Assembly (NCBI GenBank): GCA_934090935.1
Contig: CAKOKD010000003.1
Location: 92,604-156,603, forward strand
Origin: an uncultured Bacilli bacterium
GTDB taxonomy: Bacteria; Bacillota_I; Bacilli_A; RF39; UBA660
Direction of reading: 5' to 3'
DNA: 64,000 bases
The notes under the pieces were generated by a model. It was given only the letters and a program-made list of their open reading frames with translations, was not told where the DNA came from and searched no databases. Each line of letters starts with the position of its first letter. Within the stretch, counting starts at the first letter, position 1. Shown one piece after another: positions 1 through 59,478 of the stretch. Both the position numbers and the translations under genes were made by a program.

Positions 1-545
1 ATTTGATGAGTTCTTTCTTTAACACTTAACTCTTTTTTCATTATTTTAGTATTAAGCGGTTTATTGAGTTTTTGTCTTGATAAGAAAAGTTCAAAAGCGT
101 TTATTAAATCGTCTAAATCGTTTTCTCCAAAAAGAATGGTTTCTTCTTTTTTATATTCGCTTAAATCACTTGGAAGTTTTGTATAAAATTCACTTCTCTT
201 ATCCTCAAGTTCTTTAAAAGAATCCGTTATTCCTTTTATTTTTTCATATTCAAGCAAACGTATCTTTAAGTCTTCTTCAGAGTTGAATTCATATTCACTT
301 TCTTCATCCTCATCCTCTTTATTTAAAAGAAGTTTACTTTTTAAATGGATTAGCTCTGCAGCCATAACCAAATACTCACTTGAATCATCCATCGATAAGT
401 CTTTATTGTTATTAATAAAATCTAAATATTGACGGGTAATGCTTTCAATGTTGATATCATATATATCCATTTTACTGCTTCTTATTAGATGTAGAAGTAA
501 ATCAAGTGGACCTTCAAAATCATTTATACTAAAATTGGGAATCAT
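1..545 (-). CDS. scpA: Segregation and condensation protein A (ScpA), N-terminal part; the gene runs off the window start
   Basis: Reverse-strand translation from ATG at 545 gives MIPNFSINDFEGPLDLLLHLIRSSKMDIYDINIESITRQYLDF...EYLVMAAELIHLKSKLL. This matches the kleisin ScpA N-terminal signature (FEGPLDLLL, EYLVMAA). The ATG overlaps the stop of the upstream ORF as ATGA. Confidence 0.7.
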   Translation of the reverse strand, partial: MIPNFSINDFEGPLDLLLHLIRSSKMDIYDINIESITRQYLDFINNNKDLSMDDSSEYLVMAAELIHLKSKLLLNKEDEDEESEYEFNSEEDLKIRLLEYEKIKGITDSFKELEDKRSEFYTKLPSDLSEYKKEETILFGENDLDDLINAFELFLSRQKLNKPLNTKIMKKELSVKERTHQ

Positions 546-1510
546 TCACAATCAAATCCTTTTCCTATCATAGAATAAGTTACACGTTTTACATTTGTAG
601 ATGCATCATAATAGTTATAATCATTGATATCCTCAGGTAAGCTTGTTTTTTCAAGGTCGATGTCTGCCTTATAAAGAATACCATCACTTGTTTCTTCAAC
701 ACTAGCAATGCTTCCTAATTTAGAAGCTTTTAAGCGATAACTTTCCAAAGTACTTAAATACTTTTCTGTGCTTAAATTAGCCGATGATATAACTTCATTG
801 TCTTTTATTTCAATTAGTTTATCATTCGCGAAAACATATTCAATTTTTCTTGAATCGTTTTTACAAGTAACACTTCCAATACCTGATTCATCAGTTGTAA
901 GAGCATATTCTGGATAATCCTCTTCATTCATAAGAACGATTTTCCCTAAATACGTGATATTACTATTAAAGTTTGCTGATGTTTTAAATTCTACTTCTTT
1001 TTCTTGGTAATCATATGTACCTGTTAGTTTTATATATGCAATTTTATTATTGTTTTTGCTGGATAGAACCTCGAAATAATACTCTTTTTCATCTAAATTA
1101 ATGACATTATTGTAACTTGATATCGTCATCTTTATCGTATTATTATAAAGAGAAAAATCTTTTAAAACAATATTTCCACTTTTTAATGTAGTAGTTCTAA
1201 GAAGTGATTGAGCTTTATTTCCGTCAAGATAAGTTTTGTTTGTTGTGATATTTACGTCGTTGGATGAATTGCCATTTAAAAATTTATAAAGAACACTGTT
1301 CTCATCATTCATCATGCTAGTTACAATCGGTAAACCGATCAAAACTATAATAAATAGGATACCAAGTTCAATGACAATCATCGGTCTTCCTATTTTTTCT
1401 TTTCGAAGTTCGCCTATTACTACCGGTTCAACATCTTTTGGGCTTGTATAAGTAGTTTCTTCTACATTATTTTGATTTTTATCTTGCATATATATCCCCT
1501 CTATCCTCAA
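542..1510 (-). CDS. hypothetical membrane-anchored protein (single N-terminal TM, Asn/Lys-rich ectodomain)
   Basis: 322-aa ORF with hydrophobic segment MIVIELGILFIIVLIGLPIV. No recognisable family. Translationally coupled to scpA. Confidence 0.45.
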   Translation of the reverse strand: MRIEGIYMQDKNQNNVEETTYTSPKDVEPVVIGELRKEKIGRPMIVIELGILFIIVLIGLPIVTSMMNDENSVLYKFLNGNSSNDVNITTNKTYLDGNKAQSLLRTTTLKSGNIVLKDFSLYNNTIKMTISSYNNVINLDEKEYYFEVLSSKNNNKIAYIKLTGTYDYQEKEVEFKTSANFNSNITYLGKIVLMNEEDYPEYALTTDESGIGSVTCKNDSRKIEYVFANDKLIEIKDNEVISSANLSTEKYLSTLESYRLKASKLGSIASVEETSDGILYKADIDLEKTSLPEDINDYNYYDASTNVKRVTYSMIGKGFDCE

Positions 1511-1544: not shown

Positions 1545-2966
1545 CTACTTTTCCACTACACCATCTAAACTAAAGCTTTTTGCTTCAGTAATTTTTACAT
1601 CAACAATTTGACCTACTAAAGATTTATCACAAGAAACATTTACAAGCTTTTGAGTTTCAGTATATCCAAATAATTTGTTTTCATCCTTTTCACTTGTTCC
1701 TAAAAGTAAAACTTTAACCGTTTGATTTAAATATTTTTGATTGTTCATATTTGAATATTTATTAACAATTTCATTTAATCTATGAAGTCGATCCTCTTTA
1801 ACACTTTTAGGTACTTTATCCTCCATACGAGCTGCAGGAGTTCCTTCCCTTGGAGAATATATGAATGTAAATGCTCCATCATACTTACATTTTTCTACAA
1901 CATCCAAAGTTTCTTGAAAATCCTCTTCAGTTTCATTTGGGAATCCGACAATTATGTCTGTTGTTATTGCAGCATCTTTTACACGATTTTTTATCTTCTC
2001 ATAAAGGCTTAAGTATTCTTCTTTTGTATATCTTCTTCCCATAAGTCTTAAAATATTATTTGATCCACTTTGTAAGGGTAGATGAATGTATGGCATTATG
2101 TTATCATATTTAGCAATAATATCTATCATTTCATCTGTAAAGTTCCATGGATGACTGGTAACAAAACGAACACGTTCTATTCCTGTTTTGGCAACACTCT
2201 CTAAAAGAGATGCAAAACTTATCTCTTCTTCTCTATCAGATCCATAAGCATTAACATTTTGTCCAAGCAAAGTAATCTCTTTATAACCTTTTTCTTTTAA
2301 ACAATTTACCTCTCTTAGGATATCTTCACTTTTTCGGCTTCTTTCTTTTCCTCTAGTGTATGGAACTATGCAATAAGTACAGAATTTATCACATCCATAA
2401 GATATATTTACCCAAGCAACATATTTTGAATCTCTTTTATAAGTTTCACCGATTTCAAAAACATTTCCTTCATTACTTTTAACTTCAATATTTAAACCAT
2501 CACTTAAATTCATTAAATAGTTAGGAAGTTCATGAATATTATGAGTTCCAAATACTAAATCAATATATTTATGATGATCCATTATTTCTTTTACAACACT
2601 TTCTTCTTGAGCCATACATCCACAAAGAATTATTTTCAAATCTGGTTTTGATTCTTTCAAATGTTTACATAAGCCAAGGAATCCAAAAACTTTATCATGA
2701 GCATTTTCTCTAATTGCACAAGTATTTAAAACAATGATATCAGCATTTTCATATTCCAAAACAGGTTCAAATCCTAAGTTTTCTAAAAGAGCACTTATTT
2801 CCTCCGAATCATGCACATTCATTTGACAGCCATAAGTTCTAATAAAGTATTTTTTACCATTAAATTTATTACTAACTATTGGGTCATTATAAACAAATTC
2901 AACTTTTTCTTGATTTCTAGATTTTTCTTTTTTCATATCCGGTATATTCATAAACTTCACTTCCAT
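1545..2966 (-). CDS. miaB: tRNA-i6A37 methylthiotransferase MiaB (radical SAM + TRAM)
   Basis: N-terminal MTTase motif YFIRTYGCQMNVHDSE. Radical-SAM cluster motif GCDKFCTYCIVPYTRGKERSR, which is MiaB-type CDKFC-TYC. C-terminal TRAM-like end. Confidence 0.85.
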   Translation of the reverse strand: MEVKFMNIPDMKKEKSRNQEKVEFVYNDPIVSNKFNGKKYFIRTYGCQMNVHDSEEISALLENLGFEPVLEYENADIIVLNTCAIRENAHDKVFGFLGLCKHLKESKPDLKIILCGCMAQEESVVKEIMDHHKYIDLVFGTHNIHELPNYLMNLSDGLNIEVKSNEGNVFEIGETYKRDSKYVAWVNISYGCDKFCTYCIVPYTRGKERSRKSEDILREVNCLKEKGYKEITLLGQNVNAYGSDREEEISFASLLESVAKTGIERVRFVTSHPWNFTDEMIDIIAKYDNIMPYIHLPLQSGSNNILRLMGRRYTKEEYLSLYEKIKNRVKDAAITTDIIVGFPNETEEDFQETLDVVEKCKYDGAFTFIYSPREGTPAARMEDKVPKSVKEDRLHRLNEIVNKYSNMNNQKYLNQTVKVLLLGTSEKDENKLFGYTETQKLVNVSCDKSLVGQIVDVKITEAKSFSLDGVVEK

Positions 2967-3038
2967 TTAAAGATTATAACATAAGAAAATAAAAATCTCT
3001 ACATATAATTAAGTAAAGATTTTTATTCAATTAAACCA

Positions 3039-3179
3039 CTATTTTTCATAGATTGTTGCTTGTTTTATATCACTTGCATTCTCAATCATTCGAACATTTA
3101 TCGACATAAGAGAAAAACCTATGAATAAAACAAGTAGAACTAAAATCACCCCACGATACTCATATAAAAGTTTTTGCAT
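3039..3179 (-). CDS. small SOS-type membrane protein divergent from lexA (SosA/YneA-like candidate cell-division inhibitor); start chosen at internal Met with RBS
   Basis: The 75-aa ORF 3039..3266 contains TM GVILVLLVLFIGFSLM. Internal ATG at 3179 is preceded by GAAAGGAAG RBS (7-nt spacing). A canonical Cheo box lies about 36 nt upstream. It is divergent from lexA, as sosA is in Staphylococcus and yneA in Bacillus. Confidence 0.4.
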   Translation of the reverse strand: MQKLLYEYRGVILVLLVLFIGFSLMSINVRMIENASDIKQATIYEK

Positions 3180-3214
3180 ATCAACACTTCCTTTCGACAA
3201 ATCAATCATATCAA

Positions 3215-3227
3215 GAACATTTGTTCG
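3215..3227. promoter_or_regulatory. LexA/DinR operator (Cheo box GAACATTTGTTCG)
   Basis: Exact GAAC-N4-GTTC palindrome in the lexA divergent intergenic region. Confidence 0.6.
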
Positions 3228-3260
3228 TGTCAATAATAAAAAAGTTATTTTTGTAATATT

Positions 3261-3273
3261 AAACATTTGTTTG
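3261..3273. promoter_or_regulatory. degenerate second LexA box (AAACATTTGTTTG) overlapping the lexA -35 (TTGACA 3270..3275)
   Basis: 10/12 symmetric. Sits on a TTGACA-17-TAAAGT promoter facing lexA. Confidence 0.3.
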
Positions 3274-3319
3274 ACATTTCATGTTTTTTTTGATAAAGTT
3301 TTAGTAGGAGGAATAAAAT

Positions 3320-3940
3320 ATGACTCAAGAATTAACTAAAAAACAAAATGAAACATTGACATTTATAAAAAAATATATTGTATCTCATGGATATGCTCCA
3401 AGTGTAAGAGAAATATGTGCCGGTATGAATCTTTCAAGTCCAGCTACTGCACATACTCATTTAAAAGAACTTGAAAAAAAAGGTTTTATTAGAAAAGAAG
3501 AAAATAAGTTTAGAACAATCGAGCTTTTAGTCGACAATGAATATGATAAAAAGGAAGAGGATGTTGTTTCAGTTCCCCTTCTTGGTAAGATATCTTGCGG
3601 TAATCCAATTGAAGCAATCGAAAATCCTAATGAATTCTTTACTCTACCAGCAAGTTTAATCCCTGCGAAGGAATCAATTTTTACTTTAAAGTGTTCTGGA
3701 GATTCAATGATTAATGTTGGTATATATGATAAAGATATTGTTATTATAAAGAAACAAAGTGTTGCTCATAATGGTGATATTGTTGCTGCTATGACTGAAG
3801 AAAATGAAGTTACTTTAAAAACTTTTTATAAGGAAAGCGACCATATTAGACTTCAACCTGAAAATGATGAATTATCCCCTATTATAGTTAAAAATTGTAC
3901 TATTTTAGGTGTTGCTATCGGACTTTATAGAAAATTATAA
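3320..3940 (+). CDS. lexA: LexA transcriptional repressor (SOS regulator)
   Basis: N-terminal wHTH (GYAPSVREICAGMNLSSPATAHTHLKELEKKGFI). Cleavage region CGNP. S24 peptidase Ser/Lys dyad context (SGDSM ... K). 206 aa. Confidence 0.9.
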   Translation: MTQELTKKQNETLTFIKKYIVSHGYAPSVREICAGMNLSSPATAHTHLKELEKKGFIRKEENKFRTIELLVDNEYDKKEEDVVSVPLLGKISCGNPIEAIENPNEFFTLPASLIPAKESIFTLKCSGDSMINVGIYDKDIVIIKKQSVAHNGDIVAAMTEENEVTLKTFYKESDHIRLQPENDELSPIIVKNCTILGVAIGLYRKL

Positions 3941-3959: not shown

Positions 3960-4820
3960 CTATAGACCAAGAGTTTTCATAAACTCTTTTTTCTTTTTAT
4001 CAAAATTCTCATAATAACTAACAAAATCCGTTGGTATATTTATTCCGTGTTTTTCTTCAATTCTTGAAAGTATGCTAGTTATGCTATAATTCAATATCAT
4101 ATTCAAATATTCTTCAAAGTATTCATTGTTTTCCTTTATATAAGCTGATGATTCGGGATTGAATGAATAATTTATTAACGGATCTATATAGGTTTCTTCA
4201 TCCAACTTTATAAATGACGATTCATAGTCAAATGTTGGAGTAAAGACTAATTTTCCATCAGATATTCCATAATATGTATTTTCGCTACGATCATTTAAAG
4301 ATGTATAGAAATGTTTAATCAACATGGCTGTGTAGTTTCTTCTTAAAGATTCATCACATTCATAGGATTTGTCGGTTAGTATTTTTCTTATTTCTAACAA
4401 AGTATTTTTACTGGCATGAATACCTTTGTGATAATTATAGGTACCGTCTAAAAAGTTTTCTGAAAATACACCGATGATATCATCGTCGTCTGTTGCAAGG
4501 CTATAGTGGATAGTAGGAATACCCATTAATATAGCTAGTTCTTCACCTATTAATTCATTTAATATAGCAAAATTGTTTACACGTTTTTTTAAATAATATG
4601 TTTTTTCATCAATAAAGTACCATGTGTTATAACGTTTTATAGTCTCCAATGGAGTTCTTGTTAGCTTTTCTGTTCTATCATCAGCTGGTAGCTTTATTCC
4701 AGAATTTATATCAATCGTTTTAGTTTTGTCCGTTTTTAACATAGACGTATCTATAATTCTAGAGTCATCTTTATATTTAAATTCAGCATCCAATATACTA
4801 CAATCATAAACTTTTCCCAT
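3960..4820 (-). CDS. hypothetical protein
   Basis: 286-aa ORF, no recognisable motif. A GGAAAC-tgtg-GTTTCC hairpin plus U-run (3938..3962) lies at its 3' end. Confidence 0.45.
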   Translation of the reverse strand: MGKVYDCSILDAEFKYKDDSRIIDTSMLKTDKTKTIDINSGIKLPADDRTEKLTRTPLETIKRYNTWYFIDEKTYYLKKRVNNFAILNELIGEELAILMGIPTIHYSLATDDDDIIGVFSENFLDGTYNYHKGIHASKNTLLEIRKILTDKSYECDESLRRNYTAMLIKHFYTSLNDRSENTYYGISDGKLVFTPTFDYESSFIKLDEETYIDPLINYSFNPESSAYIKENNEYFEEYLNMILNYSITSILSRIEEKHGINIPTDFVSYYENFDKKKKEFMKTLGL

Positions 4821-4939: not shown

Positions 4940-6193
4940 TTAAGATATTTTAAACGCTGGAGAAATACCATAGATCGCGATAGTGTTTGTATATGAAAGC
5001 TTACCTGATTCACTAACGTTACAGAATCCTTGAGCATCCTTTGCAGCAGCAGTTCTAAGCCAATAACTAGTGTTTGTTCCTTGATAAGTCTTTATGGCTG
5101 GAGAGTACTCTGTTAAAGTAACTGAAGCATTCTTATAATAGTCAAGTTGTCTTGTTGAAGCACCTGATGAATCATAGAATGTTGAATTTTCTCCCCAAAT
5201 CTCTTTTGGTGAAAACAAATATATTTTGTCGCTTGATTGAAAATCCATTTCTCCCCTTGTTGGACCATGTCCCGATATTATTTTGGTTGTAGTTATAACA
5301 TTTTGTAACTCACTTGGAAGAGCAGAATAAATAGTGTCATTAAGATAAAGTTTTAAATATGTTGAATTCCAACCTCCTACGTTAGTAGCTGTGCTATTTA
5401 CATATATTTTATCTATAATATCTACAATTTCAAATACAAAACCACAGGCCGTTTCACTTCTTTCAGTAGTACATGCACTTGTATTCATAATGCGAACTTG
5501 AACAGTTTGAGATGGAATAACGGCAGATTTACATGTATAAGAAGTAGTATTCTTTATAATTGTTCCACAGTTATTTGTATAAGAACTTAATGTTATAGTT
5601 TTAGTATCTCCTACTTTATATTCACTTGTATTACCATTTTCGATGTCGTTTTTAATAGTTTCCCAGCTATTCTTTTCAAAAGCACTGGCACCTGTTTCAA
5701 TCTCAGTTCGTTCTGTTGCATTAAATTCTAATGTACAGGTATATTCTTCACTTACCTCTTCTGTTGATGTTTTATTAAGAGTTGTTGTAAGAGTTCCATT
5801 TACTGACTTTTTAGCTTTTACAACATCGGCATTTCCTTCAAGTTCATTCTTGATACTTGTATATTTTGCTGTTGCTCCGTCCTTTGGTACACATGTTACT
5901 TTAACCTCTGCATCATAAATGCTTGAGTTATTAGTTATCGTATATTCTAGAATTGAAGTTTGATTTAATGTCTTTAATTCTGATGTTTCAAAAGTTATAA
6001 CCTTTTTAGTATCATCAATTACATCATCATATACATCTTTACCATCAAGACTAGCAGCAGTAAATGCTACTGAAAAATCATCCTCATTTTCAGATATTCT
6101 TGTATTCGAATTTATTATAAGCGTTGTTGATACGGCAGCAAATCCAATACTCATAATCAATATTACTAAAGCTAACATATTCTTATTTTTCAT
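4940..6193 (-). CDS. variable secreted protein paralog, conserved N-module + C-terminal SPAFRI-type domain; tandem copy without poly-G promoter
   Basis: MKNKNMLALVILIMSIGFAAVSTTLIINSN... N-module is about 75% identical to the other copies. C-terminus has ...WLRTAAA...GISPAFKIS. RBS GAGAGG. Confidence 0.75.
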   Translation of the reverse strand: MKNKNMLALVILIMSIGFAAVSTTLIINSNTRISENEDDFSVAFTAASLDGKDVYDDVIDDTKKVITFETSELKTLNQTSILEYTITNNSSIYDAEVKVTCVPKDGATAKYTSIKNELEGNADVVKAKKSVNGTLTTTLNKTSTEEVSEEYTCTLEFNATERTEIETGASAFEKNSWETIKNDIENGNTSEYKVGDTKTITLSSYTNNCGTIIKNTTSYTCKSAVIPSQTVQVRIMNTSACTTERSETACGFVFEIVDIIDKIYVNSTATNVGGWNSTYLKLYLNDTIYSALPSELQNVITTTKIISGHGPTRGEMDFQSSDKIYLFSPKEIWGENSTFYDSSGASTRQLDYYKNASVTLTEYSPAIKTYQGTNTSYWLRTAAAKDAQGFCNVSESGKLSYTNTIAIYGISPAFKIS

Positions 6194-6288: not shown

Positions 6289-7476
6289 TTATGCGATTCG
6301 GAATGCTGGAGAGACTCCATTGAAATAGTTTGCATCGTTACTGTACCATCTGCCATCACTGTCGACGCCAAGGAAACCAATGTCATAATCAGAATAAGCC
6401 GAACGAAGCCACCATGTTGTATTTATTCCGTTATGTTGTTTTATTGCTCCTGCGTAACTGCTTGTTGTTACTCCTTGATTTTTATAATAATCTAATTGTT
6501 TTGATGTTCCTATTGATGTATCATGATCATTACCATTCCAAACTTCTTGTGCACTCAATAAGTATAATTTATCTTGGGTTTCAAAATTCGTTTCTCCACT
6601 TGTACTTCCATGACTTGATATTACTTTTGTTATTGTAATCACGTTTTGTAATTCAATTGGAAGTGCATTATATATTGTTCCATTTACATATGTACGTAGT
6701 TCTGAATCTTTCCATCCACCTACATTTGTTGCTGTACTATTTATTTTGTGATCTGCTATATAGCTTGCAAATTCTACTACAAATCCACATGCTGTTTCAC
6801 TTGTTTCTGTTGTACATGAACTCATGTTTGCAATACGCACTGTATGTGTTCCTAAATCCCCCAAGTCTACTTCTTTAGTATCTCCCACATTGTATTTATC
6901 TGTATTTCCTGATTTTACAGCTTTTTGTATTGTTTGCCAACTATCAGTTGAAAATGAGATAGGATCCGGAATGTTTACTCCAACAGTATCTCTTTCTACT
7001 GCATTAAATGTAAGTGTACATACATATTCTTCTCTTACTTCTTCTGTTGCTGTTTTATTAAGTGTTACTGTTAATGTTCCATTAACACTTTCCTTTGCCA
7101 ATACTTTCGTTACATTTCCTTCTAGTTCATTTTTTATACTTGTGTATTTTGCTGTAGTTCCATCTTTTACTTTACAATTTACTTGCACTTCAGCATCATA
7201 GTTTGCTGAATTATTTGTTACTTCATAATTTAACACACTTGTTTGATTTAGTGTTTTTAATTCTGATGTTTCAAATGTTATTATCTTCTTTGTTTCATCT
7301 ACTACAGAACTATATACATCCTTTCCATCTATACTTGCAGCTGTAAAGATAACTGAGAAGTCATCTTGATTTTCACTTACGTTTGCATTTCCATTTATTA
7401 TTAATGTTGTTGAGATCGCTGCAAATCCAATTGACATTAAAATAATTGCTACTATAAGCATACTCTTCTTTTTCAT
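6289..7476 (-). CDS. variable secreted protein paralog (N-module + SPAFRI-type C-domain)
   Basis: MKKKSMLIVAIILMSIGFAAISTTLIINGNA... Conserved blocks NVGDTKEVDLG, CTTETSETACGFVVEF, TNVGGW, LQNVITxTKVIS, QLDYYKN, WWLRSAYS, GVSPAFRIA. Confidence 0.8.
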   Translation of the reverse strand: MKKKSMLIVAIILMSIGFAAISTTLIINGNANVSENQDDFSVIFTAASIDGKDVYSSVVDETKKIITFETSELKTLNQTSVLNYEVTNNSANYDAEVQVNCKVKDGTTAKYTSIKNELEGNVTKVLAKESVNGTLTVTLNKTATEEVREEYVCTLTFNAVERDTVGVNIPDPISFSTDSWQTIQKAVKSGNTDKYNVGDTKEVDLGDLGTHTVRIANMSSCTTETSETACGFVVEFASYIADHKINSTATNVGGWKDSELRTYVNGTIYNALPIELQNVITITKVISSHGSTSGETNFETQDKLYLLSAQEVWNGNDHDTSIGTSKQLDYYKNQGVTTSSYAGAIKQHNGINTTWWLRSAYSDYDIGFLGVDSDGRWYSNDANYFNGVSPAFRIA

Positions 7477-14109: not shown

Positions 14110-16269
14110 TTAATCAAATATGCTTTTACACTTAGTTACTTCGCCATCTAAATGCCATCCGTCATTAGTGTTATATTTTAATACATACCATTCAAATTGA
14201 CAGTCTTTCTTTAAAAAGTTTTTCTTTTCATACTTTTTAATAGCTTGTTCTTCTATTGATTTTAGCTCTATCTTTGATTCAGCAGTCATATAATTATATA
14301 TTTCATCTTGATTTAATGATAAAACGGCTTCATGTTTTTTATTTTTCTTAGCCTCTGCTATTATATTGCTGATTCTGTTTGACGATAAAACAAATTTAAT
14401 TTTTTTATTCTTTCCTAATTCTTCATACCAAATAGGATTTCTACCTGCTCCATTGCTTGGTCTGTTAAGTACTTTTAATCTATATAGTCTTGTTGTTGCA
14501 ATTCCAAGTTTTTCATATACAGCTTCAATATTTGTATTCTCTTTTATATTTTTTAAAGATTTATTCCATTTTTTAAACTCTAAATAATAAGGATTTTCTC
14601 CATCAACATATACTAAAGAATCATATTTAGGTTCTTCTACAGCTTCATCATATTTAACTTTCTTTTGAGTTTCTACTAAAGCATTATTTTGATAATATTT
14701 AAATGTAACAATAAACTCTTTTTTGCTTGTAGTTGCATAATATGATGTATCCTTAGAAGGCATTGTTTCATCAACCTTCCAAGAACTAAATGTATATCCT
14801 TCTTTTACTTTATAATCAGGTAGTTTTATTTTCTCTCCATATTTATAATTTTCTTCTTTATATAAATCATTATCTATAAAGAATTTTGCTTTATAAGTTT
14901 CTAAATCATAAGTGATAGTTAGTACTAAACTTCCATCTGCTTTAATAATACCAGTTAGAATAGATTTTTCTTTGTTGATTTTATAACCAGACTTTTTATC
15001 ATTTAAAGTTATTTTTTCATTTGTTTTGCCAGTTTTAACTTTCTCATTTTCTTTATAAGTACCATCTAGATTTTCTAATCTTTCAATTATTTTATACTTA
15101 GTGTTTTCACTTTCTTTGAAAAGTGCTTTTAAAGATAAATCGCCTGTTGTTCCTCGTTTTATCTCATCCACTTTTTTTCCGGATTCATCCTCCCATGAAA
15201 CAAATACATATCCTTGTTTTTCTATTTTGTTTAATTTAAATGTCTTTGTTTCTATAGTATATGAAGTTTTATTATCAGTTTTACTTCCACCATTTAAATC
15301 ATATTCAATCTTATAAGTAATTAGATTATATTCAGCTTTGATAACTAAATCACTTTTAATATTTTTTTCACTTTTATTCCATGATTTAAAAGTATAACCT
15401 GTTCTTTCTTTTACTTCAGGAATTGTTGCATCATTTCCATATTTAACAGTTTGTTCACTTATAATAGTATCATTATAATCAACAAATTTAACTTTAAAAG
15501 TCATATTATTTATCTTTTCGATAATCTCTTCTATTTTCTTAGTTTCTTTATCGATTTCTTCTTGAGTTGACTTTTCATTATCAATAATTTTTTCAGCTGA
15601 TTTTATCTCTTTTTCTAAATCAGCAAGTATTTTTTTTGCCTTTGAATCATCAGTTGAATAAAGATATTCTTTTGATCTTTTAATAGCGTTTTTTAATTCT
15701 GTATCATCAACGACTGTAATAGTTCTTGTAACTGTTAATGCTGCGTTTTTACTTGAATCTGTTACATCATAAGTTACTTTATAAACTCCTTTTTTAGAAG
15801 TATCAACCATATTTTTAGTAACAATCTTTTTTGTTAAATCACCATCATAGTTGTCACGTGCTTTAGCTTTTAAATCATTGTAAACTGTATTAATTCTAAT
15901 TATTTCATCACTTCCATTTAAAGTGATAACTGGTGCAGTTGTATCAACAACAAGGAATTCTTTTTTTATTTCATTTGATAATCCAGCTTCATCAGTAGCA
16001 ATAAATGTTACTTCATATTTTCCTACCTTTTTATTGTTGATATTGTTTTCGATTTTTAAAGTAACATTATCTGCAACTTTTCCGTTAAATTTTGGAATGT
16101 TATCAAATACTTCTATTTTAAATTTATTACCTGTTATATCTATATCAGGTTTTGTAGAAGTTGATATTAAAGTTTCACTTCCATTTTCTTCACTTGGATT
16201 AGCAAATGAGAATGCAAAGAATCCAAAGAAAACAAATATTATAAGTGCAAGTAATTTCTTCTTATCCAT
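14110..16269 (-). CDS. secreted surface protein with Ig-like (DUF5011-type) domain and Listeria-Bacteroides (flg_new) repeats
   Basis: Signal peptide present. DTTAPVITLNGSDEI...YDGDLT is Ig-like. Repeated modules have the pattern YxVxFxxNGG...GYTFxxW (e.g. VKFVDYNDTIISEQTVKYGNDATIPE...GYTFKSWN). Confidence 0.7.
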   Translation of the reverse strand: MDKKKLLALIIFVFFGFFAFSFANPSEENGSETLISTSTKPDIDITGNKFKIEVFDNIPKFNGKVADNVTLKIENNINNKKVGKYEVTFIATDEAGLSNEIKKEFLVVDTTAPVITLNGSDEIIRINTVYNDLKAKARDNYDGDLTKKIVTKNMVDTSKKGVYKVTYDVTDSSKNAALTVTRTITVVDDTELKNAIKRSKEYLYSTDDSKAKKILADLEKEIKSAEKIIDNEKSTQEEIDKETKKIEEIIEKINNMTFKVKFVDYNDTIISEQTVKYGNDATIPEVKERTGYTFKSWNKSEKNIKSDLVIKAEYNLITYKIEYDLNGGSKTDNKTSYTIETKTFKLNKIEKQGYVFVSWEDESGKKVDEIKRGTTGDLSLKALFKESENTKYKIIERLENLDGTYKENEKVKTGKTNEKITLNDKKSGYKINKEKSILTGIIKADGSLVLTITYDLETYKAKFFIDNDLYKEENYKYGEKIKLPDYKVKEGYTFSSWKVDETMPSKDTSYYATTSKKEFIVTFKYYQNNALVETQKKVKYDEAVEEPKYDSLVYVDGENPYYLEFKKWNKSLKNIKENTNIEAVYEKLGIATTRLYRLKVLNRPSNGAGRNPIWYEELGKNKKIKFVLSSNRISNIIAEAKKNKKHEAVLSLNQDEIYNYMTAESKIELKSIEEQAIKKYEKKNFLKKDCQFEWYVLKYNTNDGWHLDGEVTKCKSIFD

Positions 16270-16602: not shown

Positions 16603-16722
16603 ACTCGCGTATAAATGCAACTGACTACCTTTATTTCATATGAAATAATAAGGCTCTTGAGCTTTGCGTCACTACATTTCTATAGTTTTGCCCTAATCTA
16701 CTTTAATAAAATATAACATAAT

Positions 16723-17791: not shown

Positions 17792-18970
17792 TTATACTAT
17801 TCTAAATGCTGGGGAAACACCTTTAGAGACGTTCGCATCGAAAGCGGAGTTGACGCCGCTGCTACTGACGCAAAGAAACCAGTAATTAACGCCAGAATAA
17901 GCCGAACGTAACCACCAATAGTCATTTCTTCCTTTATATTGTTTTATTGCTCCTGCATATTTATCAGCTGTTATTCCTTGATTTTTGTAATAATCTAATT
18001 GTCTTGACGTTCCTACTGATGTATCATGATCATCACCATTCCATACCTCTTGTGCATTTAATAAATATAATTTATCTTGTGTTTCAAAATTTGTTTCTCC
18101 AGAATTTTTTCCATGGCTTGATATTATTTTTGTTGAAGTTATTACACTTTGTAAGTCACTTGGAAGTGCATTATATATTGTTCCATTTATATATGTACGT
18201 AACTCTGAATTTTTCCATCCACCAACATTTGTTCTTGTACTGTTAAATGCTCGCATTGTTATTATATCTGCAAACTCAACTACAAATCCACATGCTGTTT
18301 CACTTGTTTCAGTTGTACATGCACTCATGTTTGCTATACGCACTGTATGTGTCCCTAGATTACCTAATTCTACTTCTTTAGTGTCTCCTACATTATATTT
18401 GCTTGTATTTCCATTCTTTACGTTTGATGCTATTGCTGACCAACTATCCTTTTGGAATTGAGTTAATTCTACACCAACTGTGTCCCTTTCTACTGCATTG
18501 AATTCTAACTTACATGTATATTCTTCACTTACTTCTTCTGTTGATGTTCTATCAAGTGTTACTGTTAATGTTCCGTTTAATGAAGTCTTTGCTTTTACAA
18601 CTGTGGCATTATTTTCAAGTTCATTCTTGATACTTGTATATTTTGCTTTTGTTCCGTCCTTTGGTACACATGTTACTTTAACCTCTGCATCATAGTTTGC
18701 TGAGTTATTTGTTACTTCGTAATTTAATATACTTGTTTGATTTAATGATTTTAATTCTGATGTTCCAAATGTTATTATCTTCTTTGTATCATCTACTACA
18801 GAACTATATACATCCTTTCCATCTATACTTGCAGCTGTGAAGATAACTGAGAAGTCATCTTGATCTTCGCTTACTTTAGCATTTCCGTTTATTATTAATG
18901 TTGTTGAGATCGCTGCAAATCCAATTGACATTAGTAATATTGCTACTATAAGCACACTCTTCTTTTTCAT
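17792..18970 (-). CDS. variable secreted protein paralog (N-module + SPAFRI-type C-domain)
   Basis: MKKKSVLIVAILLMSIGFAAISTTLIINGNAKV... C-terminus ends ...WWLRSAYS...GVSPAFRIV. Confidence 0.8.
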   Translation of the reverse strand: MKKKSVLIVAILLMSIGFAAISTTLIINGNAKVSEDQDDFSVIFTAASIDGKDVYSSVVDDTKKIITFGTSELKSLNQTSILNYEVTNNSANYDAEVKVTCVPKDGTKAKYTSIKNELENNATVVKAKTSLNGTLTVTLDRTSTEEVSEEYTCKLEFNAVERDTVGVELTQFQKDSWSAIASNVKNGNTSKYNVGDTKEVELGNLGTHTVRIANMSACTTETSETACGFVVEFADIITMRAFNSTRTNVGGWKNSELRTYINGTIYNALPSDLQSVITSTKIISSHGKNSGETNFETQDKLYLLNAQEVWNGDDHDTSVGTSRQLDYYKNQGITADKYAGAIKQYKGRNDYWWLRSAYSGVNYWFLCVSSSGVNSAFDANVSKGVSPAFRIV

Positions 18971-19151: not shown

Positions 19152-19156
19152 ATAGT

Positions 19157-19252
19157 TTATATTCCTTTTTTACAAAGTAGATATAATAATATAAAAATTA
19201 TAACGAATAAACTTACAATTAAAACATCTGTTTTAAATGATTTCTTAAACAT
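19157..19252 (-). CDS. 31-aa hydrophobic peptide (type I toxin-like): MFKKSFKTDVLIVSLFVIIFILLYLLCKKGI
   Basis: AAGGGAG RBS 9 nt before ATG. Single TM helix with charged ends. 5' UTR contains the reverse complement of motif B (19304..19339). Its 3' end overlaps the sRNA terminator. Confidence 0.4.
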   Translation of the reverse strand: MFKKSFKTDVLIVSLFVIIFILLYLLCKKGI

Positions 19253-24785: not shown

Positions 24786-26153
24786 TTATTTTATTAATGT
24801 TATACGTGCATATCCATTTCCTTGTTTAGAACAGTTTTCGGTTGGTGTTTCGCTTGTGCATGTAGTTGATATGGTTTTTGTTGACTCTTCACTAGATTCA
24901 GTACAGTTGTAACAATACATCGATTTTTCGGATAAAAGTGAATTTCCTATGTATCCTGAACCTCCGCCAGCGGTATATCCAGCAACAGTTCCACCATAGA
25001 AACCTCCACCGCCTCCAGCCCAGGCCAAAGTGCCTCCACCGCCTTGACCAAATGTTCCAAAATTAGGATTATTTTTATTTGAAGACTCATTCACTGAATT
25101 ATATATTCTTTTGCCTCCATTTGTTTGGGTTCCTCCAAATCCTTGATAGGGTTTGCCTGAAGATGCTGCTATATAAGATCCCGAGTTTCCTCCAATATAA
25201 CCACCACCGGATCCAGAAACTATTTTATAATTATGGTCGTTATTACCACCACCGGCTCCTCCTCCAGAAACAATTAATACATCATCAATGTTATTATTAA
25301 AAGCATATAGTAAACCAGATTCTAATGCTATGTGTGTCGCACCACCTCCACTTGCATTATATGAATTAGTAGCCGAATTAAATGATGCAGATCCTCCTCC
25401 ATTATAGCCGCCTTCTTTGTTTACCCAAGTTAATTCTCCAAGGCCTTGTCCTCCAATATTAATATAAAACTTATTATTCTTTTCTAAATAAATTATTCCT
25501 TGAGAATACCCTCCATATCCACCAGAAATATTTACAGTTTTTCCACCTTCTGCTCCCCAAGTTTCAAGCTTATATGTTCCATTTACTGGAACTTCAAATG
25601 TTTGTTCATCTCCAGTATAATCAAATGTCCATTCTGTTGGTCCATCGTAACTAACACCTAATTCTGTTCTTTCTACGGCATTAAATTCTAATGAACATGT
25701 ATATTCTTCAGTTGTTTCTTCTATTGATTGTTTATCTAAGGTAACAGTTAATGTTCCATTTAATGTTTCGTTTGCTTTTACAACTGTTGCATTTCCTTCT
25801 AATTCATTTTTGATACTTGTATATTTTGCTGTTGTTCCGTCCTTTGGTACACATATAACACGCACTTCTGCATCATAGTTTGCTGAATTGTTTGTTACTT
25901 CATATGTTAGTACTGATGTATCATTTAGTTTTTTTAGGTCTTTACTTTTAAATGTTATTGTCTTCTTTGTATCATCTGTTACTTCATCATATACATCTAT
26001 TCCATCTAATGTTGCTGCTGTAAATATTACTGAATAATCATCTGTATTTTCATTTACTTTTGCATTTCCATTTATTATCAATGTTGTACTTACTGCTGCA
26101 AATCCAATTGACATCAATATTATTGCTACTACTAACATGCTCTTCTTTTTCAT
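24786..26153 (-). CDS. variable secreted protein paralog: conserved N-module + ALK/LTK-like glycine-rich (poly-Gly) domain + Cys-containing C-terminal tail
   Basis: N-module MKKKSMLVVAIILMSIGFAAVSTT... Then PTEWTFDYTGDEQTFEVPVNGTYKLETWGAEGG...GGYGGYSQG...GGGATHIALESGLL...LIVSGGGAGGG... Tail YCYNCTESSEESTKTISTTCTSETPTENCSKQGNGYARITLIK. Confidence 0.8.
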   Translation of the reverse strand: MKKKSMLVVAIILMSIGFAAVSTTLIINGNAKVNENTDDYSVIFTAATLDGIDVYDEVTDDTKKTITFKSKDLKKLNDTSVLTYEVTNNSANYDAEVRVICVPKDGTTAKYTSIKNELEGNATVVKANETLNGTLTVTLDKQSIEETTEEYTCSLEFNAVERTELGVSYDGPTEWTFDYTGDEQTFEVPVNGTYKLETWGAEGGKTVNISGGYGGYSQGIIYLEKNNKFYINIGGQGLGELTWVNKEGGYNGGGSASFNSATNSYNASGGGATHIALESGLLYAFNNNIDDVLIVSGGGAGGGNNDHNYKIVSGSGGGYIGGNSGSYIAASSGKPYQGFGGTQTNGGKRIYNSVNESSNKNNPNFGTFGQGGGGTLAWAGGGGGFYGGTVAGYTAGGGSGYIGNSLLSEKSMYCYNCTESSEESTKTISTTCTSETPTENCSKQGNGYARITLIK

Positions 26154-32344: not shown

Positions 32345-32369
32345 TAAAAAAAATCGCATTCTTGCGATT
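32345..32369 (-). terminator. rho-independent terminator of 32368..34497 (stop codon lies inside the hairpin)
   Basis: Minus-strand AATCGCAAGAATGCGATT plus TTTTTTTT. Confidence 0.5.
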
Positions 32370-45784: not shown

Positions 45785-46224
45785 AAACTTTTCCTCCTTT
45801 TAATTAACAAAATAACTATAAATAATATAACAATGGTAACTATGGGTATAAATATATAACAATATGTATGATTATTTTCTTTATTATATATTACTACTTC
45901 TTGAAAAGATTCATCTCCATAGCTTAAATATGTTTCTTTTAACTTGCCTTTATAGGTTATCTTTCCTATCTCAAACCTTCCTTCTTTAAACGAATCTGTA
46001 TAGAGAAGGATTGAATTAGAATCATAATCTCCTTGAAAATCATTTGATGGTTCAAAATTTATAACGTCTCCTTTTATATGATATTCAATTGCTGATACTA
46101 AGAAGTTTGAATTAGCATACATCGTACATGTGTGTTCACTTTTTTTATCCTCGCATTCATAGTCAATATTCTCTGCAAGAACAAGCGTTGGAAGAAGTGA
46201 TAACATAACAATTATCATTTTCAT
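45781..46224 (-). CDS. small membrane-anchored protein with a mini cohesin-like module
   Basis: Signal peptide. LLYTDSFKEGRFEIGKITYKGK parallels LYTDTMKTGTFSIGTITLK of the neighbour. C-terminal TM plus RRKSL. Confidence 0.4.
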   Translation of the reverse strand: MKMIIVMLSLLPTLVLAENIDYECEDKKSEHTCTMYANSNFLVSAIEYHIKGDVINFEPSNDFQGDYDSNSILLYTDSFKEGRFEIGKITYKGKLKETYLSYGDESFQEVVIYNKENNHTYCYIFIPIVTIVILFIVILLIKRRKSL

Positions 46225-58398: not shown

Positions 58399-59478
58399 TT
58401 ATTTATCTTTGGCAATATTTAGAATTATTCCAATCATGATTAAACAAGTAAGCAAACTTGAACCTCCATAGCTTAAAAAAGGAAGTGTTACCCCAGTAAC
58501 TGGGATAAGTCCAACTACAACAAGTAGATTTAATAAAGTTTGCAAGATTAGTTCTAAGATAAGACCAAATGATAAATATTTTCCAAATAGATCCTTAGTT
58601 TCTAAAGATATTTTTACAACATTATAAAACAGGGTTATATAGCAAGCGGTTATTATTAAGATACCAATAAATCCTAGTTCTTCTGAAATGATTGCAAAGA
58701 TAAAATCAGTTTGAGGTTCTGGCAGATAAAAATGTTTTTGAATTGAGTTACCGAGACCTAATCCAAATAAACCTCCTGGACCAATCGCATATAAACTTTG
58801 AATTATTTGAAAGCCACTTCCTAAGGGATCACTCCAAGGATTAAGGTAAGCAACTATTCTAGCAACTCGATATGGAGCAGCTATTATTAAACCGACTATT
58901 CCAACAACACCTAAGAACCCTAGTTTTACAAAAAAAGATATCTTAATTTTAGATGTAAATATTAAAGCAATAAGCGATAAAACTAAAATCGCACCACTTC
59001 CAAAGTCTGGTTCTAATAAAATGAGAAGAAAGCATATTATAACTAATCCTAAAATAGGAAGAGAATATTCTTTGATATTATCCATATATGAATCGTGTTT
59101 GGACAAATACTTTGATACAAATATAATCATAGCAATTTTCGCGATTTCACTAGGTTGAATACCAAATGGACCTATACCAAACCAACTTCGGCTTCCATTT
59201 CTTACAATTCCTATTCCAGGAATGAGCACCAATACAAGCAGTATAAAAGATCCAATAAGTATCTTATTTGCCCAATTTTTATAGTATCTATAATCTATTT
59301 TGCTTATAAAAAACATTAAAACTATACCAATTAAAGCAAATAAGGATTGATGAATCATATATTTATAAGGATTGTTAAACTTATATTCCGCCCATATACT
59401 TGAGGATGAAGAAATCATAATGATTCCAAATATAGTTAAAAATATTGAGATAAATGTTATTATAAATTTTCTATTCAT
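58399..59478 (-). CDS. ftsW: SEDS-family peptidoglycan glycosyltransferase (FtsW/RodA/SpoVE)
   Basis: 10-TM protein with the conserved SEDS periplasmic loop (...RSWFGIGPFGIQPSE...) and C-terminal block PVTGVTLPFLSYGGSS. Confidence 0.8.
   Translation of the reverse strand: MNRKFIITFISIFLTIFGIIMISSSSSIWAEYKFNNPYKYMIHQSLFALIGIVLMFFISKIDYRYYKNWANKILIGSFILLVLVLIPGIGIVRNGSRSWFGIGPFGIQPSEIAKIAMIIFVSKYLSKHDSYMDNIKEYSLPILGLVIICFLLILLEPDFGSGAILVLSLIALIFTSKIKISFFVKLGFLGVVGIVGLIIAAPYRVARIVAYLNPWSDPLGSGFQIIQSLYAIGPGGLFGLGLGNSIQKHFYLPEPQTDFIFAIISEELGFIGILIITACYITLFYNVVKISLETKDLFGKYLSFGLILELILQTLLNLLVVVGLIPVTGVTLPFLSYGGSSLLTCLIMIGIILNIAKDK

What the first reader, a model, noticed from the sequence alone, without database searches (positions are those of the whole stretch)
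3039..3290. SOS regulon core: canonical Cheo box in front of a SosA/YneA-like small membrane protein transcribed divergently from lexA
GAACATTTGTTCG (3215..3227) is an exact GAAC-N4-GTTC LexA operator. It lies about 36 nt upstream of a 46-aa single-TM peptide (RBS GAAAGGAAG), on the strand opposite lexA. A second degenerate box overlaps the lexA -35. Divergent lexA plus a small membrane division inhibitor is the arrangement of yneA in Bacillus and sosA in Staphylococcus. The gene is unannotatable by homology because these inhibitors are lineage-specific.
Basis: partly seen in the sequence, partly recalled or inferred. Interest (0 to 1): 0.5.

Follow-up and report, generated by a model that had tools for sequence, protein, structure and literature searches.

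The report
LexA-controlled 46-residue membrane peptide beside lexA
Next to the DNA-damage repressor gene lexA, an uncultured gut bacterium carries a tiny, unannotated membrane-peptide gene whose promoter holds a LexA binding site, so it is probably a new, very small counterpart of the proteins that pause cell division during DNA repair.

Summary
GAACATTTGTTC (3215-3226) is the only exact GAAC-N4-GTTC in the 64 kb. It fills the 17-nt spacer of a strong minus-strand promoter (TTGACA 3233-3228, TGnTATGAT to 3205). That promoter drives a 46-aa single-pass membrane peptide (3179..3039) transcribed away from lexA (3320-3940). A weaker box, AAACATTTGTTT (3261-3272), overlaps the lexA -35.

Comparative data show the gene and the operators are real. 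The peptide belongs to an unannotated family: 191 clusters at 50% identity, 34-51 aa. In all 28 loci examined it sits upstream of and divergent from lexA. The downstream neighbour varies, and the same "-35 plus Cheo box" layout recurs.

The 75-aa gene call is an artefact. Its "conserved" LTRTNV motif is the translated promoter and operator.

The peptide is not YneA. It has no LysM domain, no hit to the YneA model, and no detectable sequence similarity. True YneA occupies the same slot behind the same promoter geometry in Bacillales.

LexA repression is well supported in silico. Division inhibition, probably through FtsW (present in the window), is inferred by analogy only.

Verdict: a new, minimal member of a known kind. 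Moderate interest.

The parts
3039..3179 (-). Gene for the 46-aa membrane microprotein MQKLLYEYRGVILVLLVLFIGFSLMSINVRMIENASDIKQATIYEK (stop included). It has a short, positively charged N-terminus, a TM helix at about residues 10-26, and a polar C-terminal tail of about 20 residues.
   Evidence: The ORF and its SD are conserved in 23 loci with LexA identity of about 71-96%. Codon-position differences run 3>1>2. Family size: 104 clusters at 90% identity and 191 at 50%. Hydropathy peaks at residues 10-25. AF2 predicts helices 2-7 and 9-42, with pLDDT about 90 over residues 11-30.
3187..3195 (-). Shine-Dalgarno GAAAGGAAG, 7 nt upstream of the ATG at 3179.
   Evidence: Read directly. An SD at the same spacing is present in all 23 relatives.
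3205..3233 (-). Promoter of the peptide gene: -35 TTGACA (3233-3228), 17-nt spacer, extended -10 TGATATGAT (3213-3205). The predicted transcription start is near 3198, giving a 5' UTR of about 19 nt.
   Evidence: 11 of 12 matches, TG present. The -35 is invariant in the 23-locus alignment.
3214..3227 (-). LexA operator (Cheo box) CGAACAAATGTTCT on the gene's strand. The core GAAC-N4-GTTC is at 3215-3226. It abuts the -35 and fills the spacer.
   Evidence: The same position is occupied in relatives and in five distant family members. Over-extended gene calls across the family carry the translated motif LTRTNV(L/F)D, which is TTGACA plus CGAACAAATGTT.
3260..3273 (+). Autoregulatory LexA box TAAACATTTGTTTG (core AAAC-N4-GTTT), overlapping the lexA -35.
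   Evidence: AAACATTTGTTTGACA is almost invariant in 23 loci. It corresponds to CGAACGAATGTTTG in the Bacillales loci.
3271..3299 (+). lexA promoter: TTGACA, 17 nt, TG-n-TAAAGT.
   Evidence: 10 of 12 matches, TG present. Conserved.
3320..3940 (+). lexA, 206 aa. It has a winged-helix DNA-binding domain and an S24 self-cleaving domain. The Ser (GDSM) and Lys (TLKTF) dyad is present. The scissile bond is Cys-Gly (ISCGNP).
   Evidence: TIGR00498, 220 bits. Alignment to solved LexA structures.
2987..3028 (-). AT-rich 16-bp hairpin followed by a U-run. This is the probable intrinsic terminator of the peptide transcript, upstream of miaB (1545-2966).
   Evidence: dG -16.1 kcal/mol, z = -2.86, 1 of 200 shuffles as stable. 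The paired arms AAAATCT(C/T)TAC ... GTA(A/G)AGATTTT recur in relatives.
58399..59478 (-). ftsW (SEDS peptidoglycan polymerase), directly downstream of mraY. This is the inferred target and is not part of the locus itself.
   Evidence: Pfam FTSW_RODA_SPOVE, E = 2.6e-109. TIGR02614 ftsW scores 396 bits against a 337.5 cut-off, while RodA falls below its cut-off.

Best explanation
This is a LexA-repressed, DNA-damage-inducible microprotein gene. It occupies the yneA/sosA slot of an uncultured gut Bacilli lineage (closest named genome: Firmicutes bacterium CAG:582).

Shown in silico:
- Two back-to-back sigma-A-type promoters lie between lexA and the peptide gene, and each carries a Cheo-type LexA box.
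- On the peptide side the 14-bp box fills the spacer between -35 and -10, so a bound LexA dimer would exclude RNA polymerase.
- On the lexA side a weaker box overlaps the -35, giving autoregulation.

Inferred:
- After DNA damage, RecA-stimulated self-cleavage of LexA frees the strong promoter. The Ser/Lys dyad is present and the cleavage site is Cys-Gly.
- A monocistronic mRNA of about 220 nt is made, with a 5' UTR of about 19 nt, a strong SD and its own terminator.
- The 46-aa peptide inserts N-in/C-out as one long helix: TM residues 10-26 continuing into a conserved juxtamembrane N-x-R-x3-4-N motif.

By analogy with YneA, SosA and SidA, and least certain: the helix binds the late divisome, most likely FtsW/PBP2B, which are encoded in this window. 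This would delay septal wall synthesis until LexA is restored.
For: **Operator in the spacer of an 11/12 promoter:**

**Conserved architecture:** seen in 23 relatives and 5 distant family members. Seventeen of 28 loci have at most 1 mismatch to the box, against about 1% of shuffles.

**Real coding gene:**
- The start, SD and length are conserved.
- Substitutions are biased to the third codon position.
- The 5' extension is closed by a stop in 17 of 23 loci.
- The family holds 191 clusters at 50% identity.

**Linkage is to lexA only:**
- Every HMM hit in all held DNA is the ORF next to lexA.
- Downstream neighbours differ: miaB, an MGDG synthase, an uncharacterised 153-aa protein followed by transketolase, an M16 peptidase, a GTPase.

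**Same slot as yneA:** Bacillales loci hold true YneA in the same slot with the same promoter geometry.

**Topology and fold:** net charge is +1.7 on the N-terminal side and about 0 on the C-terminal side across 116 members. AF2 predicts a continuous helix over residues 9-42.

**LexA looks competent for self-cleavage:**

**Target genes are present:** ftsW, mraY and a class B PBP fragment are in the window.

**Literature:**
- SOS division inhibitors of Gram-positives are small single-pass membrane proteins encoded divergently from lexA, with little mutual homology (PMC6851548).
- YneA was shown experimentally to bind FtsW TM7 through its TM helix. SosA, ChiZ and SidA are only predicted to do so, from low-confidence AlphaFold 3 models (PMC13396833).
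Against: - There is no expression or phenotype evidence of any kind. Induction and division arrest are both inferred.
- There is no sequence similarity to YneA. No comparison with SosA was possible because no SosA sequence was held.
- For YneA, the TM helix alone localises to the division site but does not inhibit division; the LysM domain is needed (PMC13396833). This peptide has no such domain, and a 34-aa subfamily has almost no extracytoplasmic part. A mechanism copied from YneA therefore cannot apply unchanged.
- In one clade (L011, L013, L016, L030) the box lies upstream of the -35 rather than in the spacer.
- In several clades the distal half-site is degenerate, so the strength of repression probably varies.
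Confidence: 0.55

Rival explanations
1. It is an SOS-induced membrane toxin of the TisB type. The peptide would permeabilise or depolarise the membrane to induce dormancy or persistence, rather than target the divisome.
For: It is a small, very hydrophobic, LexA-controlled single-helix peptide. No accessory domain would be needed for this role, which also fits the 34-aa subfamily.
Against: - No plus-strand promoter for an antisense RNA is predicted across 3039-3200, and there is no Rfam match.
- The 5' UTR is about 19 nt with an exposed strong SD, not a long occluding leader.
- The conserved features are polar juxtamembrane residues (N-x-R-...-L-N) and a Y-(K/G)-G motif, typical of specific protein contacts.
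- The strict linkage to lexA in the yneA slot matches division inhibitors. In my recollection it does not match the known type I toxins.
Confidence: 0.12
2. It is a LexA-regulated membrane microprotein with a different SOS-related job. Examples would be modulating a membrane protease, a wall hydrolase or a transporter, or feeding back on the SOS circuit. It would have no direct role in division.
For: Regulation is well supported, while function is inferred only from position. The family has no annotated relative. Related lineages place unrelated genes in the same slot, including another ~50-aa TM peptide in L025/L026 and a 274-aa protein in L027/L028.
Against: Every experimentally studied small membrane protein encoded divergently from lexA in Gram-positives has turned out to be a division inhibitor (PMC6851548). 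Nothing in the sequence points to another partner.
Confidence: 0.2
3. It is a YneA orthologue by descent. It would have lost its LysM domain and diverged beyond recognition, rather than being an independently recruited peptide.
For: It has the same slot, orientation and promoter-operator geometry as yneA in Tuberibacillus, Caenibacillus and Pullulanibacillus. The topology is also the same: N-terminal TM helix with the C-terminus outside.
Against: There is no hit to NF010723 or LysM. The family HMM scores YneA sequences at 3 bits or less, no better than an unrelated TM peptide. No intermediate forms with a partial LysM domain were found among 191 clusters.
Confidence: 0.08
4. The ORF is not translated. 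The LexA-controlled promoter would make a small RNA, or would drive miaB.
For: Gene callers disagree on the start (75 aa against 46 aa). miaB lies downstream on the same strand in this lineage.
Against: - The ORF, SD, start and length are conserved down to about 20% identity, with substitutions biased to the third codon position.
- A terminator hairpin separates the ORF from miaB.
- The downstream neighbour differs in five other lineages while the peptide stays.
Confidence: 0.03

Closest known systems
YneA (Bacillus subtilis, Listeria; NCBIfam NF010723)
   Same: - The gene is divergent from lexA, with a Cheo box inside the promoter spacer next to TTGACA.
- It is a single N-terminal TM helix with the C-terminus outside.
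- In Bacillales loci recovered here, YneA sits in exactly this slot.
- The YneA TM helix binds FtsW TM7 (PMC13396833).
   Different: - YneA is about 105 aa and needs its C-terminal LysM domain to inhibit division.
- This peptide is 46 aa with no LysM domain and no model hit.
- There is no detectable sequence similarity.
SosA (Staphylococcus)
   Same: - It is LexA-controlled and divergent from lexA.
- It has no LysM domain.
- Its TM helix lies near residues 10-30, and a conserved membrane-proximal extracellular segment is modelled as an extension of the TM helix (PMC6851548; PMC13396833).
- Here AF2 gives one helix over residues 9-42, and the conserved motif lies just outside the membrane.
   Different: - SosA is 77 aa, with about 45 extracellular residues that are needed for activity and for CtpA turnover.
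- This family has about 20 such residues, and only 6-8 in the 34-aa subfamily.
- Homology to SosA was not tested because no SosA sequence was available.
SidA (Caulobacter crescentus)
   Same: It is an SOS-induced, very small (29 aa) membrane peptide that acts on the late divisome (FtsW/FtsN) without any extra domain. In size and minimalism it is the closest analogue.
   Different: It comes from a different phylum with a different LexA motif. As far as I recall it is not encoded next to lexA. No homology is expected.
DivS (Corynebacterium) and ChiZ/Rv2719c (Mycobacterium)
   Same: Both are SOS-induced single-pass membrane division inhibitors encoded next to lexA. DivS also lacks a LysM domain (PMC6851548).
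   Different: Both are actinobacterial and larger, and ChiZ has a LysM domain. They are not similar in sequence as far as is known. This was not tested here.
TisB (E. coli type I toxin)
   Same: It is a LexA-box-controlled hydrophobic peptide of similar size.
   Different: TisB has a long structured leader and the IstR antisense RNA, and it acts by depolarising the membrane (my recollection). None of the RNA features is seen here.

Membership tests
YneA (NF010723 / TM + LysM) | C-terminal LysM peptidoglycan-binding domain (PF01476) | tested here: not met
   There was no Pfam hit at E<=10 for the window peptide or for three other family members. LysM was found in the L031 and L033 proteins in the same run.
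YneA (NF010723 / TM + LysM) | Score above the NCBIfam equivalog cut-off (60 bits) | tested here: not met
   There was no hit for the peptide family. The positional counterparts in L031 and L033 score 76.5 and 83.8 bits. The family HMM against YneA sequences scores 3.7 bits or less.
YneA (NF010723 / TM + LysM) | Divergent from lexA with a LexA box in the promoter | tested here: met
   The promoter geometry is identical to that of Bacillales yneA.
SosA (staphylococcal) | 77-aa protein with TM at about residues 10-30 and an extracellular C-terminal domain of about 45 residues | tested here: not met
   The TM position is similar (residues 10-26). The protein is 46 aa, and the family ranges from 34 to 51 aa.
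SosA (staphylococcal) | Sequence homology to SosA | not tested
No library searched returned a SosA model.
SOS-induced small membrane division inhibitors (functional class: YneA, SosA, DivS, ChiZ, SidA) | LexA operator positioned to repress the promoter | tested here: met
   The box fills the spacer of an 11/12 promoter. It is conserved in 28 loci.
SOS-induced small membrane division inhibitors (functional class: YneA, SosA, DivS, ChiZ, SidA) | Single-pass membrane protein, N-in/C-out | tested here: met
   Hydropathy and charge bias support this: +1.7 on the N-terminal side against about 0 on the C-terminal side, and 77% of members have the more positive N-terminus. AF2 predicts a helix over residues 9-42. 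The topology is predicted, not measured.
SOS-induced small membrane division inhibitors (functional class: YneA, SosA, DivS, ChiZ, SidA) | Transcript induced by DNA damage in a RecA/LexA-dependent way | not testable with these tools
   This needs RNA-seq or qPCR after mitomycin C or UV treatment.
SOS-induced small membrane division inhibitors (functional class: YneA, SosA, DivS, ChiZ, SidA) | Blocks septation on expression and acts on the late divisome (FtsW/PBP) | not testable with these tools
   Only the presence of the presumed target could be shown: ftsW (TIGR02614, 396 bits), mraY and a PBP fragment in the window.
Type I toxin-antitoxin (TisB/IstR-like) | Cis-encoded antisense or divergent sRNA antitoxin, and a long translation-occluding 5' leader | tested here: not met
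   No plus-strand promoter is predicted over 3039-3200. The predicted UTR is about 19 nt with a free SD. There is no Rfam hit. These consensus scans cannot exclude a weak antisense promoter.
LexA (TIGR00498) | LexA DNA-binding domain plus S24 domain with the Ser/Lys dyad and a cleavage-site Gly | tested here: met
   The protein scores 220 bits against a cut-off of 111 and has both Pfam domains. The Ser in GDSM and the Lys in TLKTF align to E. coli S119 and K156. The cleavage site is Cys-Gly instead of Ala-Gly.

The most novel reading that the evidence does not exclude
This family would be a minimal, domain-less SOS checkpoint effector of Firmicutes. A 34-46-aa helix would by itself shut down the FtsW-PBP2B septal synthase. 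YneA, in contrast, needs its LysM domain in addition to its TM helix. If true, it is the smallest natural FtsW-directed inhibitor in a Gram-positive lineage. The N-x-R-x3-4-N juxtamembrane motif would then mark a new inhibitory contact on a SEDS polymerase.
Probability: 0.3. Interest if true: 0.6.

Novelty: new member of a known kind. Interest (0 to 1): 0.35.

Why it matters
- **Annotation.** It assigns a regulatory context and a testable function to an unannotated microprotein family of uncultured gut Bacilli (at least 191 clusters at 50% identity). Gene callers either miss it or start it wrongly.
- **Evolution.** The lexA-divergent "checkpoint slot" and its promoter-operator cassette are conserved from Bacillales to these lineages, while the effector is replaced or diverged beyond recognition.
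- **Mechanism.** A natural 34-46-aa variant without any wall-binding domain would be a useful probe of how small membrane peptides inhibit FtsW, a current question after the YneA-FtsW TM7 work.
- **Limits.** It does not overturn anything. A specialist would expect such a gene at this position.

Tried and rejected
1. **The 75-aa gene call (3266..3039), used by public gene callers.** Rejected.
   - The in-frame extension is closed by a stop within 1-10 codons in 17 of 23 relatives, including those with 96% identical LexA.
   - It has no SD and would start inside the lexA promoter.
   - Its "conserved" LTRTNV(L/F)D and MSNKCL motifs are translations of the -35 plus Cheo box and of the lexA -35/box.
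2. **Homology to YneA.** Pfam, NCBIfam and a local hmmsearch were all negative. A planned profile-profile comparison failed because the YneA query returned only itself.
3. **The ~50-aa TM peptides in the same slot in L025/L026.** They are not recognisably related to the family (5.9 bits or less).
4. **Other SOS boxes in the window.** A relaxed scan (RAAC-N4-GTTY) found 8 sites against 4.7 expected. Only the two lexA-region sites and one at 19221 are intergenic by the >=120-aa ORF map, and the 19221 site lies inside a 31-aa ORF, so it is probably chance. No regulon can be defined from 64 kb.
5. **Known RNA families in 2850-3450.** Nothing credible was found.
6. **Named or cultured hosts for the family.** Two database searches and a cluster look-up gave only "hypothetical protein" from MAGs and metagenomes.
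7. **A fused FtsW-linker-peptide AlphaFold run.** Considered and not attempted. No paired alignment was available, and chimeric input is not accepted.

Full report
**1. What is in the sequence**

The window is AT-rich DNA from an uncultured gut member of the class Bacilli. Its LexA is 96% identical to that of "Firmicutes bacterium CAG:582". It is 63-95% identical to LexA from about 25 MAGs, labelled Bacilli, Erysipelotrichaceae, Tenericutes, Bacillota, Firmicutes or, probably wrongly, Muribaculaceae.

Between miaB (1545-2966, minus strand) and lexA (3320-3940, plus strand) lies a small minus-strand ORF.

- GAACATTTGTTCG is at 3215-3227.
- A 46-aa ORF starts at ATG 3179 and ends with the stop at 3041-3039.
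- The SD GAAAGGAAG is at 3195-3187, 7 nt from the ATG.
- A weaker box, AAACATTTGTTT (3261-3272), overlaps the lexA -35 TTGACA at 3271-3276.

The exact GAAC-N4-GTTC is unique in the 64 kb. The count alone is not significant: 0.41 are expected and 33 of 100 shuffles have at least one. Placement is what matters. The promoter scan finds a near-consensus minus-strand promoter: TTGACA (3233-3228), 17 nt, TG-n-TATGAT ending at 3205, 11 of 12 matches. The 14-bp operator (3214-3227) abuts the -35 and fills the spacer, which is the textbook position for repression by steric exclusion. Transcription should start near 3198, giving a leader of about 19 nt.

A 16-bp AT-rich hairpin with a U-run (3028-2987; dG -16.1 kcal/mol, z = -2.9) lies between the ORF and miaB. 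This suggests a monocistronic transcript of about 220 nt.

**2. The gene is real, and its start is 3179**

The same small ORF is present, divergent from lexA, in 23 of the loci held, counting the window. It is 34-49 aa long and always has an SD at the right distance. Differences between close relatives are biased to the third codon position (for example 186/102/247 and 27/10/53 at positions 1/2/3).

Public gene callers give a 75-aa product for this lineage. That extension is closed by an in-frame stop within 1-10 codons in 17 of 23 loci, including the three with 95-96% identical LexA.

The extension's apparent conservation is an artefact. LTRTNV(L/F)D is the translation of TTGACA plus CGAACAAATGTT, the -35 and the Cheo box. 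MSNKCL or MFN... is the translation of the lexA -35 and its box. This artefact is useful. It shows that the operator sits in front of family members for which only protein sequences were retrieved.

**3. A large unannotated microprotein family tied to lexA**

- A profile of 20 sequences found 104 clusters at 90% identity.
- An exhaustive HMMER search of 1.84 billion representatives found 191 clusters at 50% identity with E<=1e-3. Nearly all are 43-51 aa or over-extended calls.
- None has a Pfam or NCBIfam match, nor any name other than "hypothetical protein".

The consensus is M-x-K-x-L-x-x-Y-(K/G)-G-V-I-L-F-Y-L-V-I ... L-L-N-x-R-(F/V/I)-x-x-L-N, followed by an N/Q/E-rich tail that often ends in (A/I)-Y-Y-E-K. 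One subfamily stops after 34 residues, just past the juxtamembrane motif. The window's subclade carries the motif as S-I-N-V-R-(K/M)-(L/I)-E-N.

Five distant members were looked up in their contigs. All five lie 122-136 nt from a divergent lexA, but the downstream gene differs each time:

- an MGDG synthase
- an uncharacterised 153-aa protein followed by transketolase
- an M16 peptidase
- an unknown gene
- a GTPase

All five show TTGACA followed directly by CGAAC-N4-GTTy on the peptide side. Four also show CAAAC-N4-GTT over the lexA -35; in L042 this box is degenerate.

A six-frame HMM scan of the window and all 45 loci hits only the lexA-adjacent ORF, once per locus. In 28 loci, 17 have at most 1 mismatch to GAAC-N4-GTTC within 75 nt of the peptide ATG, against about 1% of shuffled controls.

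There are exceptions. In one clade (L011, L013, L016, L030) the box has moved upstream of the -35. In several clades the distal half-site is degenerate.

**4. Relation to YneA and SosA**

The same LexA query also retrieved three Bacillales genomes: Tuberibacillus, Caenibacillus and Pullulanibacillus. In two of them (L031 and L033) the slot holds a 104-108-aa protein that passes the NCBIfam YneA equivalog (76.5 and 83.8 bits against a cut-off of 60) and has a LysM domain. In Caenibacillus (L032) the ORF in that slot is only 64 aa and was not scanned against these models. All three promoters have the same geometry: TTGACA immediately followed by a 14-bp box filling a 17-nt spacer. The lexA-side box CGAACGAATGTTTG corresponds to the AAACATTTGTTTG seen here. 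The regulatory cassette is therefore positionally orthologous.

The coding parts are not recognisably related:

- There is no YneA or LysM hit for the peptide family.
- The family HMMs score YneA sequences at 3.7 bits or less, no better than an unrelated 31-aa TM peptide from the window.
- The ~50-aa TM peptides in the same slot in L025/L026 are also unrelated by this test.

This fits the literature. Gram-positive SOS division inhibitors (YneA, SosA, DivS, ChiZ) share synteny with lexA, one membrane span and an extracellular C-terminus, but little homology (PMC6851548).

**5. Structure and topology**

Hydropathy peaks over residues 10-25. Across 116 members the N-terminal flank has a mean net charge of +1.7 and the C-terminal part about 0, and 77% of members have the more positive N-terminus. 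This predicts N-in/C-out, as reported for YneA and SosA.

AlphaFold2 with the family alignment gives a short helix (residues 2-7), a break at Y8-G10, and one continuous helix over residues 9-42. pLDDT is about 90 for residues 11-30. The TM helix therefore runs on into the conserved juxtamembrane motif, reminiscent of the "extended helix" described for SosA (PMC13396833).

**6. Is the rest of the circuit there?**

- LexA has the Ser (GDSM) and Lys (TLKTF) dyad aligned to E. coli S119 and K156. Its cleavage site is Cys-Gly rather than Ala-Gly. From my own knowledge, UmuD also uses Cys-Gly.
- The window encodes a dcw fragment. mraY is at 59509-60501. A SEDS protein at 58399-59478 passes the FtsW equivalog (396 bits against 337.5) but not the RodA one. 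The end of a SpoVD/PBP2B-like class B PBP is also present.
- The organism therefore makes septal peptidoglycan, and the target proposed for YneA, SosA, ChiZ and SidA (TM7 of FtsW; PMC13396833) exists.

**7. Mechanism and rivals**

*Best-supported model.* LexA represses the peptide gene by occupying the promoter spacer, and represses itself through the box on its own -35. DNA damage leads to RecA-stimulated LexA cleavage and a burst of a small bitopic peptide. The peptide binds the late divisome, probably FtsW/PBP2B, and division is delayed. The regulatory half is well supported by computation (about 0.9). The division-inhibitor half is analogy only. Overall I put it at about 0.55.

One caveat is real. 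YneA's TM helix alone localises to the division site but does not inhibit division. A 34-46-aa peptide must therefore inhibit differently, more like SidA, or through the extended helix as proposed for SosA.

*Rivals.*

- **A TisB-like depolarising toxin (0.12).** No antisense promoter, no long leader and no Rfam hit were found, and the conserved polar motifs suggest specific contacts.
- **Another SOS-linked membrane role (0.2).**
- **A YneA descendant that lost LysM (0.08).** This concerns origin rather than function.
- **A non-coding transcript or a miaB promoter (0.03).** Coding conservation, the terminator and the changing downstream genes all contradict this.

**8. Novelty and verdict**

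The arrangement is the known yneA/sosA arrangement, and a specialist would expect a gene of this kind here. What is new is the family itself:

- It is unannotated and widespread in uncultured gut Bacilli.
- It is half the size of SosA and lacks any wall-binding domain.
- It has a family-wide LexA operator.

I classify it as a new member of a known (functionally defined, non-homologous) kind. Interest is moderate, at 0.35. The most novel reading still open is that it is a minimal, domain-less FtsW inhibitor (probability about 0.3).

Noticed in passing
window 16613-16702 (-): A c-di-GMP-I riboswitch (Rfam RF01051, 59.6 bits against a gathering score of 35). It lies upstream of a 719-aa surface protein (14110-16269) with Ig-like and Listeria-Bacteroides repeat domains.
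   Followed up: no
window 19156-19251 (-): A second small hydrophobic ORF, MFKKSFKTDVLIVSLFVIIFILLYLLCKKGI (31 aa). It has a good SD and a strong GC-rich terminator just downstream. A box-like AAAACATCTGTTTT (19221) lies inside the ORF, not in a promoter, and is probably chance. The ORF is unrelated to the lexA-linked family (5 bits).
   Followed up: partly
window 3320-3940 (+), residues around ISCGNP: The LexA scissile bond is Cys-Gly rather than the usual Ala-Gly. The catalytic Ser and Lys are intact. I did not check whether this holds across the whole clade.
   Followed up: partly
window 3180-3266 (-), and proteins P0009, P0084, P0125, P0171, P0200 and others: Public gene calls over-extend the microprotein across its own promoter. 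The peptide motifs LTRTNV(L/F)D and MSNKCL in these "proteins" are translated -35/LexA-box DNA. This could mislead protein clustering, but it serves as a handy marker of the operator.
   Followed up: yes
window 24786-26153, 29601-31772, 32368-34497 (-): Three paralogous large proteins carry the ALK/LTK glycine-rich domain (PF12810, E down to 5e-74). They sit close to a response-regulator-domain protein at 27862-29508.
   Followed up: no
window 4940-6193, 6289-7476, 17792-18970, 56058-57263 (-): Four paralogous proteins of about 400 aa, each with an N-terminal TM or signal segment. Three were scanned and carry a C-terminal DUF6273 domain; the fourth (6289-7476) resembles them by sequence but was not scanned. 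Two of them are in tandem right after the lexA locus.
   Followed up: no
window 3960-4820 (-) and 542-1510 (-): The conserved neighbours of the lexA/peptide/miaB block (286 aa and 322 aa) have no Pfam or NCBIfam family.
   Followed up: no
L027/L028 (about 157 nt upstream of lexA) and L025/L026: In related lineages the lexA-divergent slot holds other genes behind LexA-like boxes: a 274-276-aa protein of unknown function in L027/L028, and an unrelated 48-51-aa TM peptide in L025/L026. This suggests repeated turnover of the effector in this slot.
   Followed up: partly
window 46224-52811 (-): A 2195-aa ORF, presumably a giant surface protein. It was not characterised.
   Followed up: no
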